From assembly GCF_003334385.1 (NCBI RefSeq), contig NZ_QOWN01000002.1: 64,000 nucleotides of DNA. The stretch is one strand, 5' to 3'. The notes under the pieces are model-generated. The model made no database searches, was not told where the DNA came from, and saw only the letters and a list, made by a program, of their open reading frames with translations. Below are positions 59,349-59,630 of the stretch, in pieces (position 1 is the stretch's first letter; every line of letters begins with the position of its first letter). A program made the translations under genes and the position numbers. The DNA is from Escherichia coli. GTDB taxonomy: Bacteria > Pseudomonadota > Gammaproteobacteria > Enterobacterales > Enterobacteriaceae.

Positions 59349-59630
59349 GTTCGCGTCCTGTGCAGGTTATATGGTTGTTAACTTCTTGTCAGAGTTTATG
59401 TCGGCCCCGCTGCGGTTATCTTTAACCGATTAATTTGATTTAGATCGCAATTTGCGATTTAAACACAAATCTAATTCCTTGATTTAAAATACTTTCACTC
59501 TGTTACTATACGAAAACGTTAATTATCTTGCCCAAAAATCAGGCAATTATTGCCCTGAAAACGTGCATTTGCGCAGCAATCATCAAATCCATACCCGACA
59601 AAAACCGTGCAAAATAACAACAAATGTTAA

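What the first reader, a model, noticed from the sequence alone, without database searches (positions are those of the whole stretch)
59442..59557. Palindromes in the aer-patA intergenic region
The 417-bp region between divergent aer and patA contains ATCGCAA-T-TTGCGAT (59444-59458) and GGCAA-TTA-TTGCC (59542-59554). patA expression is nitrogen-regulated, as I recall, so these could be activator or repressor sites. I could not find a canonical sigma-54 -24/-12 element with correct spacing.
Basis: seen in the sequence. Interest (0 to 1): 0.25.

Follow-up and report, generated by a model that had tools for sequence, protein, structure and literature searches.

The report
Known CRP and NtrC sites, aer–patA spacer
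The two short palindromes are real, but each is a by-product of an already known kind of regulator site in the E. coli K-12 aer–patA control region (a CRP site for aer, a pair of NtrC sites for patA), so the finding is ordinary.

Summary
Both palindromes are at the stated coordinates. The 417-bp spacer is identical to E. coli K-12 MG1655.

Palindrome 1 (59444-59458): its left arm is the promoter-distal half of the CRP site that activates the sigma-28 aer promoter, which is experimentally defined (core TTTGA-N6-TCGCA, 59434-59449, centred at -49.5). The left arm is 98% conserved across about 50 Enterobacteriaceae. The right arm is at background level (71% against 69%), so the dyad is not the functional unit, and it belongs to aer, not patA.

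Palindrome 2 (59542-59554) is the junction of two tandem NtrC-type 17-mers: TGCCCAAAAATCAGGCA (59529-59545) and TGCCCTGAAAACGTGCA (59551-59567). They are centred at -193 and -171 from the patA start. Orthologues carry near-consensus TGCACCAnnnnGGTGCA at exactly these positions, including taxa without aer. The central spacer is the least conserved stretch and is polymorphic within E. coli. Two lineages that lost the sigma-54 -24 element also lost both sites.

It is GTGGCGCAATCCCTGCA at 59703-59719, with canonical GG-N10-GC spacing, and it is confirmed by ChIP-seq.

This is already-known regulation and of low interest.

The parts
59444..59458 (.). Palindrome 1, ATCGCAA-T-TTGCGAT; dyad centre at -59 from the aer start
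   Evidence: Read and found as I4. Left arm 98% conserved, right arm 71%, against a 69% regional mean.
59434..59449 (.). CRP site core TTTGA-TTTAGA-TCGCA, centred between 59441 and 59442 (-49.5 of the aer promoter). The 22-mer is 59431-59452. It is also the best FNR-like motif in the spacer.
   Evidence: Mapped from Hollands et al. 2010 (PMC2859248) through the -10/-35 sequences read. Consensus scan. Distal half 99% conserved.
59397..59424 (-). sigma-28 (FliA) aer promoter TAAAGATA-n11-GCCGACAT(A); transcript start at 59392 on the - strand
   Evidence: Sequence in Table 1 of PMC2859248. FliA ChIP-seq motif TAAAGATAACCGCAGCGGGGCCGACATA. Conserved at 0.94-0.97.
59458..59463 (.). Upstream alpha-CTD contact site, centred at about -68 of aer. 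FeBABE cuts at -64 and -72 correspond to 59456 and 59464. TAAAC(C) is conserved.
   Evidence: (literature) mapped onto; conservation 0.90.
59542..59554 (.). Palindrome 2, GGCAAT-T-ATTGCC; dyad centre at -182 from the patA start
   Evidence: Perfect only in E. coli among 54 orthologues. The centre is polymorphic within E. coli.
59529..59545 (.). NtrC-type site A, TGCCCAAAAATCAGGCA, centred at -193
   Evidence: First copy of direct repeat D1.
59551..59567 (.). NtrC-type site B, TGCCCTGAAAACGTGCA, centred at -171. The orthologue consensus is TGCACCAnnnnGGTGCA.
   Evidence: Second copy of D1 (22-bp spacing).
59703..59719 (+). sigma-54 promoter of patA, GTGGCGCAATCCCTGCA (-24 GG, -12 GC, GG-N10-GC). 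The predicted and reported start is C at 59730, 36 nt before the TTG start codon at 59766.
   Evidence: sigma-54 ChIP-seq peak OS33, flagged as experimentally confirmed in EcoCyc. Conservation 0.91.

Best explanation
The spacer holds two back-to-back promoter modules, and each palindrome is a side-effect of a real site for a dimeric activator rather than a site in itself.

(1) aer module. RNA polymerase with sigma-28 uses TAAAGATA-n11-GCCGACAT and starts at 59392 on the - strand. A cAMP-CRP dimer bound to TTTGA-N6-TCGCA (59434-59449, centre -49.5) recruits the polymerase through the alpha C-terminal domains, which contact DNA on both sides of CRP (about -31 and about -68). The left arm of palindrome 1 (ATCGCAA) is the promoter-distal CRP half-site plus its flank. 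The right arm (TTGCGAT, -60 to -66) fills the gap between CRP and the upstream alpha-CTD contact and mirrors the half-site only in some lineages. These steps are shown experimentally in the literature; my contribution is the coordinate mapping and the conservation analysis.

(2) patA module. sigma-54 holoenzyme sits at 59703-59719. Under nitrogen limitation, phosphorylated NtrC binds two adjacent 17-bp dyads centred at -193 and -171, 22 bp (two helical turns) apart. It oligomerises there and, by DNA looping, drives open-complex formation at the sigma-54 promoter. Every NtrC site has the form TGC..GCA, so the 3' end of site A (GGCA) and the 5' end of site B (TGCC) are automatically reverse complements. 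In K-12 the 5-bp spacer ATTAT happens to extend that into a 13-bp palindrome. NtrC dependence, NtrC occupancy of the locus and sigma-54 binding are shown in the literature. The exact positions of the two NtrC sites are inferred here from comparative sequence analysis.
For: Identity with K-12 allows direct use of the K-12 literature.

aer module:
- Promoter sequence, mapped start, CRP centre at -49.5, strict helical-face dependence, a single CRP complex in EMSA, and alpha-CTD cleavage at -30/-38 and -64/-72.
- FliA ChIP-seq motif.
- The only sequence with 2 or fewer mismatches to the CRP consensus in the spacer is 59434-59449.
- Conservation over 33 representatives (<85% identity): distal CRP half 0.99, palindrome 1 left arm 0.98, right arm 0.71, regional mean 0.69.
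- GATCGCAA is present in 50/57 taxa with aer and 0/23 without.
- E. albertii lost aer, and homology to E. coli resumes at about 59461, just past palindrome 1.

patA module:
- sigma-54 motif, ChIP-seq peak OS33 and EcoCyc 'confirmed' status.
- NtrC ChIP-seq peak at ygjG.
- patA is in the direct NtrC regulon by ChIP-exo plus RNA-seq.
- NtrC consensus TGCACCAnnnTGGTGCA.
- The only windows in the spacer with 5 or fewer mismatches are sites A and B, and they form the 22-bp direct repeat D1.
- An alignment-free scan places the best NtrC-like matches near -171 and/or -193 (a few shifted by about 10 bp or more) in most of the 79 orthologues that keep the sigma-54 promoter, with 0-2 mismatches in about half of them, and including the 23 aer-less taxa.
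- The two taxa that lost the -24 GG (Salmonella arizonae, Yokenella) have the two worst site-B scores, 9 and 7 mismatches.
- Column conservation: site B halves 0.81-0.83, site A halves 0.65-0.68, site interiors 0.47-0.49, inter-site spacer 0.36.
- Natural E. coli variants GGCAGTTGTTGCC and GGCAGTTAATGCC break the palindrome but keep GGCA and TGCC.
Against: The K-12 sites themselves are weak matches to the NtrC consensus (4 and 5 mismatches of 14; both left halves read TGCCC, not TGCAC).

I could not obtain base-resolution NtrC binding data. The ChIP-seq bin of Brown et al. maps to about 59671-59751, on the sigma-54 promoter, about 160 bp from the proposed sites. A similar offset is seen for glnA in the same table (my calculation). 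The ChIP-exo supplements were not available.

The primary promoter paper (Samsonova 2003) was not held, so the transcript start at 59730 rests on my memory of it plus Bonocora's prediction.

The right arm of palindrome 1 is intact (7/7) in 24 of 54 orthologues spanning several genera, so a weak lineage-specific constraint is not excluded.

An FNR ChIP-seq peak maps into the spacer, and its site is not located.
Confidence: 0.82

Rival explanations
1. Palindrome 1 as a whole dyad is the operator of a second, unidentified dimeric regulator (for example FNR, or an anti-activator that works next to CRP) that modulates aer and/or patA.
For: FNR ChIP-seq gives a robust peak in the aer/ygjG spacer, called by four methods, with FNR PWM ln(p) -10.23. 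ygjG is 7.6-fold higher in an fnr mutant. The best FNR-like motif in the spacer, TTGATTTAGATCGC (2 mismatches), ends in the left arm. The full dyad is intact in 24/54 orthologues from several genera, and in K-12 it extends to 12-nt arms.
Against: The FNR-like motif uses only the left arm, and the reported peak centres (59509 and 59538 in window coordinates) lie 68-97 bp to the right of that motif. Right-arm conservation equals background (0.71 against 0.69). One E. coli strain carries a C-to-T change in the right arm. The 12-nt extension is specific to the K-12-like allele, since most strains read ATTAAAGC. CRP gives a single complex on the fragment, and mutations of the CRP site abolish activation. 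The dyad is not statistically unusual.
Confidence: 0.1
2. Both palindromes are pure chance with no relation to any binding site.
For: Shuffle statistics: dyads of the palindrome 1 type occur in 12-21% of shuffles and dyads of the palindrome 2 type in 90%. Neither dyad is conserved as a dyad.
Against: Each overlaps strongly conserved, position-fixed half-sites: left arm 0.98, and the GCA/TGC ends of palindrome 2 at 0.8-0.9. These belong to a documented CRP site and to NtrC-consensus dyads. The complementarity is thus partly forced by the dyad symmetry of real sites.
Confidence: 0.05
3. Palindrome 2 acts as an IHF site, or as a hairpin or terminator on the - strand that insulates aer from patA-side transcription. 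Palindrome 1 acts as an RNA hairpin.
For: AATCAGGCAATTA (59537-59549) has one mismatch to the IHF consensus WATCAANNNNTTR. The terminator scan lists GGGCAATAATTGCCT followed by GATTTTTGGG on the - strand. Palindrome 1 would fold to -11 kcal/mol as RNA, z = -4.9.
Against: The IHF-like match and the hairpin are not conserved: the spacer is at 0.36 and only GCA/TGC are kept. The palindrome 2 hairpin is -6.9 kcal/mol, z = -0.83. Both dyads lie upstream of both mapped transcript starts (59392 leftward, 59730 rightward), so no known RNA contains them. There is no Rfam match.
Confidence: 0.03

Closest known systems
CRP-activated sigma-28 promoter of aer (Hollands, Lee, Lloyd & Busby 2010; the same organisation is found at trg)
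   Same: It is the same locus and the same sequence (identical to K-12). Promoter hexamers, transcript start, CRP centre at -49.5 and alpha-CTD contacts map onto 59392-59464. Palindrome 1's left arm is the distal CRP half-site.
   Different: Nothing differs in the site. The point added here is that the mirror-image right arm is not part of the conserved unit.
NtrC enhancers upstream of sigma-54 promoters (archetype glnAp2; consensus TGCACCAnnnTGGTGCA)
   Same: There are two adjacent 17-bp dyads on the same helical face upstream of a GG-N10-GC promoter. NtrC dependence and NtrC occupancy of the locus are known, and the orthologue consensus equals the NtrC consensus.
   Different: The sites lie further upstream (-171/-193) and closer together (22 bp) than the glnAp2 pair (about -108/-140, from memory). 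The K-12 versions are degenerate (TGCCC left halves). Site-resolution binding was not available to me.
sigma-54 -24/-12 promoters (TGGCAC-N5-TTGCA)
   Same: GTGGCGCAATCCCTGCA has the canonical GG-N10-GC spacing, is bound by sigma-54 in vivo and is conserved across the family.
   Different: It has two non-consensus positions (G for A at -22, C for T at -15). The invariant AATACTTAA just downstream is not needed by sigma-54 and looks like an overlapping sigma-S-type -10 element (inference).

Membership tests
CRP binding site | 16-bp core TGTGA-N6-TCACA with a 6-bp spacer | tested here: met
   TTTGATTTAGATCGCA at 59434-59449, 8 of 10 core positions. It is the only window in the spacer with 2 or fewer mismatches.
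CRP binding site | Position matches the experimentally defined site (-49.5 from the mapped aer start) | tested here: met
   The -10 CGA at -11..-9 and the -35 T at -32 fix +1 at 59392, so -49.5 falls between 59441 and 59442, the centre of the motif.
CRP binding site | CRP binding and CRP-dependent activation | not testable with these tools
   Reported in the literature: a single EMSA complex, loss on site mutation, and in vitro transcription.
CRP binding site | Conservation of both half-sites in orthologues | tested here: met
   Proximal half 0.87, distal half 0.99. Absent from all 23 aer-less taxa.
NtrC enhancer site | 17-bp dyad TGCACCAnnnTGGTGCA | tested here: inconclusive
   K-12 sites have 5 (A) and 4 (B) mismatches of 14. 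Orthologous positions have 0-2 mismatches in about half of the taxa, and the column consensus is TGCACCAnnnnGGTGCA.
NtrC enhancer site | Two or more adjacent sites upstream of a sigma-54 promoter, at a fixed position | tested here: met
   Centres at -193 and -171, 22 bp apart. The same positions are seen in most orthologues, including aer-less taxa, with a few shifted by about 10 bp or more.
NtrC enhancer site | Evolutionary coupling to the sigma-54 promoter | tested here: met
   The only two taxa lacking the -24 GG (L041, L011) have the two worst site-B scores of 54.
NtrC enhancer site | NtrC occupancy in vivo at these bases | not testable with these tools
   Locus-level evidence only: a ChIP-seq bin at ygjG and the ChIP-exo direct regulon. 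Site-level tables were not available.
sigma-54 promoter | GG-N10-GC with TGGCAC/TTGCA-like context, upstream of the gene | tested here: met
   TGGCGCAATCCCTGCA at 59704-59719, 2 mismatches. ChIP-seq OS33, EcoCyc confirmed. Conservation 0.91.
Palindromic operator of a dimeric regulator (each palindrome taken as the unit) | Both arms conserved, dyad kept in orthologues | tested here: not met
   Palindrome 1: right arm 0.71 against background 0.69. Palindrome 2: perfect only in E. coli, centre at 0.36 and polymorphic within E. coli.
Palindromic operator of a dimeric regulator (each palindrome taken as the unit) | Dyad stronger than chance | tested here: not met
   12-21% of shuffles match palindrome 1 and 90% match palindrome 2.
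FNR site | TTGAT-N4-ATCAA under the ChIP peak | tested here: inconclusive
   The best motif, TTGATTTAGATCGC (centre 59441.5), and a second, TTGATTTAAAATAC (centre 59485.5), lie 23-97 bp from the reported peak centres 59509/59538.
Intrinsic terminator / structured RNA | Stable hairpin in a transcribed strand, or an Rfam family | tested here: not met
   Palindrome 2 hairpin z = -0.83. No Rfam hit. Both dyads lie upstream of the mapped starts.

The most novel reading that the evidence does not exclude
In the Escherichia/Citrobacter/Salmonella-like lineages that keep all 7+7 positions, the complete palindrome 1 is bound by a second dimeric protein that sits against the upstream face of CRP at the unusual -49.5 aer promoter. 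This could be an oxygen- or carbon-responsive anti-activator, which would also explain the unlocated FNR ChIP signal and couple aerotaxis-receptor expression to patA control.
Probability: 0.08. Interest if true: 0.35.

Novelty: already known. Interest (0 to 1): 0.1.

Why it matters
It matters little beyond annotation. The case shows that short perfect palindromes in a bacterial control region can be misleading markers. Here one is half of a real CRP site plus an unconstrained mirror image, and the other is the seam between two real NtrC sites.

The useful products are:
- A base-level map of the aer–patA spacer in window coordinates.
- A comparative placement of the patA NtrC enhancer at -171/-193, supported by its retention in aer-less genera and its co-loss with the sigma-54 -24 element.
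- The correction that a canonical sigma-54 promoter is present.

Tried and rejected
- Papers not held: the primary patA promoter paper (Samsonova 2003) and the Schneider/Reitzer papers.
- Supplements not held: the ChIP-exo supplements of Kim et al. 2023.
- Uninformative: the NtrC/RpoN genomic SELEX paper does not list patA or aer, and Brown et al. give no motif.
- The PdhR paper was a false lead from word matching.
- Literature searches for a patA sigma-S promoter gave nothing usable.
- The sigma-70 consensus scan found one site, no more than chance, so the sigma-70-occupied, aerobic-only promoter reported by Myers et al. could not be placed.
- I tried to derive the FNR site from the reported '-96.5' and the peak centres. 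No candidate fits both, so this is left open.
- RNA readings were rejected: no Rfam family, and the palindrome 2 hairpin is no better than shuffles.
- From memory I compared palindrome 1 with PurR, CytR and other LacI/GalR-type operators. Spacing or half-sites do not fit, and nothing could be tested.
- An IHF reading of palindrome 2 was rejected for lack of conservation.

Full report
**What is there.** The window around the finding is Escherichia coli. aer lies on the - strand (57828-59348) and patA/ygjG on the + strand, starting with TTG at 59766, which leaves a 417-bp spacer. The spacer and its flanks are base-for-base identical to K-12 MG1655 NC_000913.3, so the K-12 literature maps directly. 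Window coordinate = U00096.2 coordinate minus 3,157,750, as fixed by the sigma-54 motif centre and the patA start. ATCGCAA-T-TTGCGAT is at 59444-59458. GGCAA-TTA-TTGCC is at 59542-59554 and is really GGCAAT-T-ATTGCC. In this strain the first extends to 12-nt arms with one mismatch.

**Chance.** I compared the spacer with 1000 dinucleotide-preserving shuffles. A perfect dyad with arms of at least 7 bp occurs in 12% of shuffles (loop of at most 1 nt) to 21% (loop of at most 5 nt). A dyad with arms of at least 5 bp and a loop of at most 3 nt occurs in 90%. Neither palindrome is remarkable alone. The spacer as a whole holds four dyads with arms of at least 6 bp and a loop of at most 5 nt, against 0.85 expected (1.2% of shuffles reach four). 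That is what a region full of sites for dimeric proteins looks like.

**Palindrome 1 belongs to the aer promoter.**
- Hollands et al. 2010 (PMC2859248) defined the single aer promoter as TAAAGATA-n11-GCCGACAT for sigma-28 RNA polymerase. They mapped the start 6 bp after the -10 octamer. They showed that activation needs one CRP site centred at -49.5, on a strict helical face, with alpha-CTD contacts about 18.5 bp to each side (FeBABE cuts at -30/-38 and -64/-72).
- FliA ChIP-seq reports the same promoter sequence.
- Reading those elements in the window puts +1 at 59392 (- strand) and the CRP centre between 59441 and 59442. The core there is TTTGA-TTTAGA-TCGCA (59434-59449), the only sequence in the spacer within 2 mismatches of the CRP consensus.
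- The left arm of palindrome 1 (ATCGCAA, 59444-59450) is therefore the promoter-distal CRP half-site and its flank. The right arm (59452-59458, -60 to -66) lies between CRP and the upstream alpha-CTD contact (about 59458-59463).

**Comparative test.** A scan of one genome per species returned 80 patA loci across the Enterobacteriaceae and relatives. Of these, 53 have the divergent aer–patA arrangement. I aligned them with the window and reduced them to 33 representatives below 85% identity.
- The distal CRP half is 99% conserved and the left arm 98%. The right arm is 71%, against 69% for the whole spacer.
- The dyad is intact in 24 of 54 sequences and falls to 1-5 of 7 pairs in Enterobacter, Lelliottia, Kosakonia, Kluyvera, Atlantibacter and others, while ATCGCAA and the downstream TAAACC stay.
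- One E. coli strain has a C-to-T change in the right arm. The 12-nt extension is an allele of the K-12-like lineage, since most strains read ATTAAAGC.
- GATCGCAA is present in 50 of 57 taxa with aer and in none of the 23 without. In E. albertii, which lost aer, homology to E. coli resumes at about 59461, just past the palindrome.
- The conserved unit is thus the CRP site, it serves aer, and the mirror image is not under detectable selection.

**Palindrome 2 is the seam of the patA NtrC enhancer.**
GTGGCGCAATCCCTGCA has the canonical GG-N10-GC spacing. It is sigma-54 ChIP-seq peak OS33, its predicted start is 36 nt before the start codon (59730), and it is flagged as experimentally confirmed in EcoCyc. 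This agrees with my memory of Samsonova et al. 2003, which I could not retrieve.
- patA is NtrC-bound by ChIP-seq and belongs to the direct NtrC regulon by ChIP-exo plus RNA-seq.
- The NtrC consensus is TGCACCAnnnTGGTGCA. In the spacer, the only windows with 5 or fewer mismatches are TGCCCAAAAATCAGGCA (59529-59545) and TGCCCTGAAAACGTGCA (59551-59567). These are the two copies of the 22-bp-spaced direct repeat D1.
- Palindrome 2 is exactly the 3' end of the first (GGCA), the 5-bp spacer ATTAT, and the 5' end of the second (TGCC). It reads GCA..TGC, inside-out relative to a single NtrC site (TGC..GCA).

**Orthologue evidence for the enhancer.**
- The aligned columns give the consensus CGCCC...GGGCA / TGCACCAnnnnGGTGCA. 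Examples are TGCACTACGCTGGTGCA, TGCACCACCACGGTGCA and TGCACTATGTTGGTGCA.
- An alignment-free scan of the 450 bp upstream of each patA puts the best NtrC-like matches near -171 and/or -193 from the inferred start (a few shifted by about 10 bp or more) in most of the orthologues that keep the sigma-54 promoter. This includes Klebsiella, Raoultella, Buttiauxella, Cedecea and other aer-less genera.
- The two lineages that lost the -24 GG (Salmonella enterica subsp. arizonae, Yokenella) have the two worst site-B scores of 54 (9 and 7 mismatches) and no site elsewhere. This co-loss ties the sites to the promoter.
- Column conservation is 0.81-0.83 for the site B halves, 0.65-0.68 for the site A halves, 0.47-0.49 inside the sites, and 0.36 in the inter-site spacer, the lowest of any feature.
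- The perfect palindrome exists only in E. coli. Even there, 2,370 of 5,422 complete genomes differ somewhere in 59525-59570. Sampled alleles read GGCAGTTGTTGCC and GGCAGTTAATGCC, with the palindrome broken and GGCA/TGCC kept.

**Mechanism.**
- Shown by others: CRP at -49.5 recruits sigma-28 RNA polymerase to aer. sigma-54 holoenzyme binds 59703-59719. NtrC occupies the locus and activates patA under nitrogen limitation.
- Inferred here: NtrC~P dimers bind the two dyads at -193 and -171, two helical turns apart. They assemble the active oligomer there and reach the closed sigma-54 complex by looping.

**Weak points.**
- The K-12 sites are poor consensus matches.
- The Brown et al. ChIP-seq bin maps to 59671-59751, on the promoter and about 160 bp from the sites. 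By my calculation the glnA bin in the same table is displaced from its known enhancer by a similar amount.
- I had no site-resolution data.

**Rivals.**
- *A second regulator on the full palindrome 1.* This is not excluded. Myers et al. 2013 report a robust FNR ChIP-seq peak in this spacer (centres equivalent to 59509/59538), FNR repression of ygjG, and an aerobic-only sigma-70 peak near 59609. The best FNR-like motif is TTGATTTAGATCGC, which is the CRP site itself. However, it uses only the left arm and lies 68-97 bp from the peak centres.
- *IHF, terminator and RNA-hairpin readings.* These fail on conservation, on folding statistics (z = -0.83 for palindrome 2), on the absence of any Rfam match, and because both dyads lie upstream of both transcript starts.

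**Verdict.** Both features fall under already-known regulation of a well-studied K-12 spacer. Interest is low.

Noticed in passing
window 59732-59745 (+), patA 5' UTR +3..+16: The dyad GTATCATGTGATAC lies immediately after the sigma-54 start and is the most conserved element of the spacer (0.98). In distant taxa the stem changes while pairing is kept: GATATCATATGATATC in Acerihabitans, and GACGTCATGTGATGTC in Hafnia with one G.T/G.U. The loop stays ATGT/ATAT. It is a candidate 5'-terminal mRNA hairpin or an operator. Its fold energy is not unusual (z = -0.28).
   Followed up: partly
window 59718-59729 (+): The sequence CAATACTTAAAT just after the sigma-54 -12 GC is nearly invariant (0.92), although sigma-54 does not need it. 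It resembles a sigma-S-type -10 element (CTATACTTAA, from memory) that would start at about the same base. This fits the reported sigma-S dependence of patA.
   Followed up: no
window 59670-59688 and 59637-59650 (+): Two further conserved blocks lie between the NtrC sites and the promoter with no assigned factor. GTGTTTATCCCGATTTT (-60..-42, conservation 0.89) is kept in 19/23 aer-less taxa. GATTAAATATTG (-93..-80, conservation 0.83) may be an IHF-type bend site, since many orthologues read AATCATnnnnTTG on the - strand.
   Followed up: partly
window 59472-59484 (-): A perfect IHF consensus, AATCAAGGAATTA (WATCAANNNNTTR), lies between the two modules. It is kept as AATCAATGAATTA in Citrobacter and overlaps the second-best FNR-like motif TTGATTTAAAATAC.
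   Followed up: partly
window ~59509-59609 (U00096.2 3217259-3217359): Published FNR ChIP-seq peak, 7.6-fold derepression of ygjG in an fnr mutant, and a sigma-70 ChIP peak seen only aerobically (430 against 7). Neither the FNR site nor the sigma-70 promoter could be placed on the sequence.
   Followed up: partly
L041 (Salmonella enterica subsp. arizonae) and L011 (Yokenella regensburgei), upstream of patA: Both lineages lost the -24 GG of the sigma-54 promoter (GACCCCCGCTAATCCCTGCA; GAGACACGTAATCGCTGCA) together with both NtrC-type sites, while keeping the -12/AATACTTAA part and the 5' UTR dyad. This suggests patA there runs only from the overlapping sigma-70/sigma-S-type promoter.
   Followed up: partly
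L001 (Escherichia albertii) 2050-2500 vs window 59349-59765: E. albertii lacks aer next to patA. Similarity to E. coli begins at about 59461, so the deletion or rearrangement removed aer, its sigma-28 promoter, the CRP site and palindrome 1, but left the patA module.
   Followed up: partly
window 59650-59672 (+): A third dyad, CACAAAT-N9-ATTTGTG (7-bp arms), lies at -80..-58 of patA. Its loop is polymorphic in E. coli (CCGAA/CCACA/CCGCA) and its arms are not conserved outside Escherichia.
   Followed up: no
window 59655-61145 (+): The mechanical ORF list extends patA to an upstream ATG at 59655 (496 aa). RefSeq and the literature use TTG at 59766 (459 aa). The sigma-54 promoter and transcript start lie inside the longer ORF, which rules it out.
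   Followed up: yes
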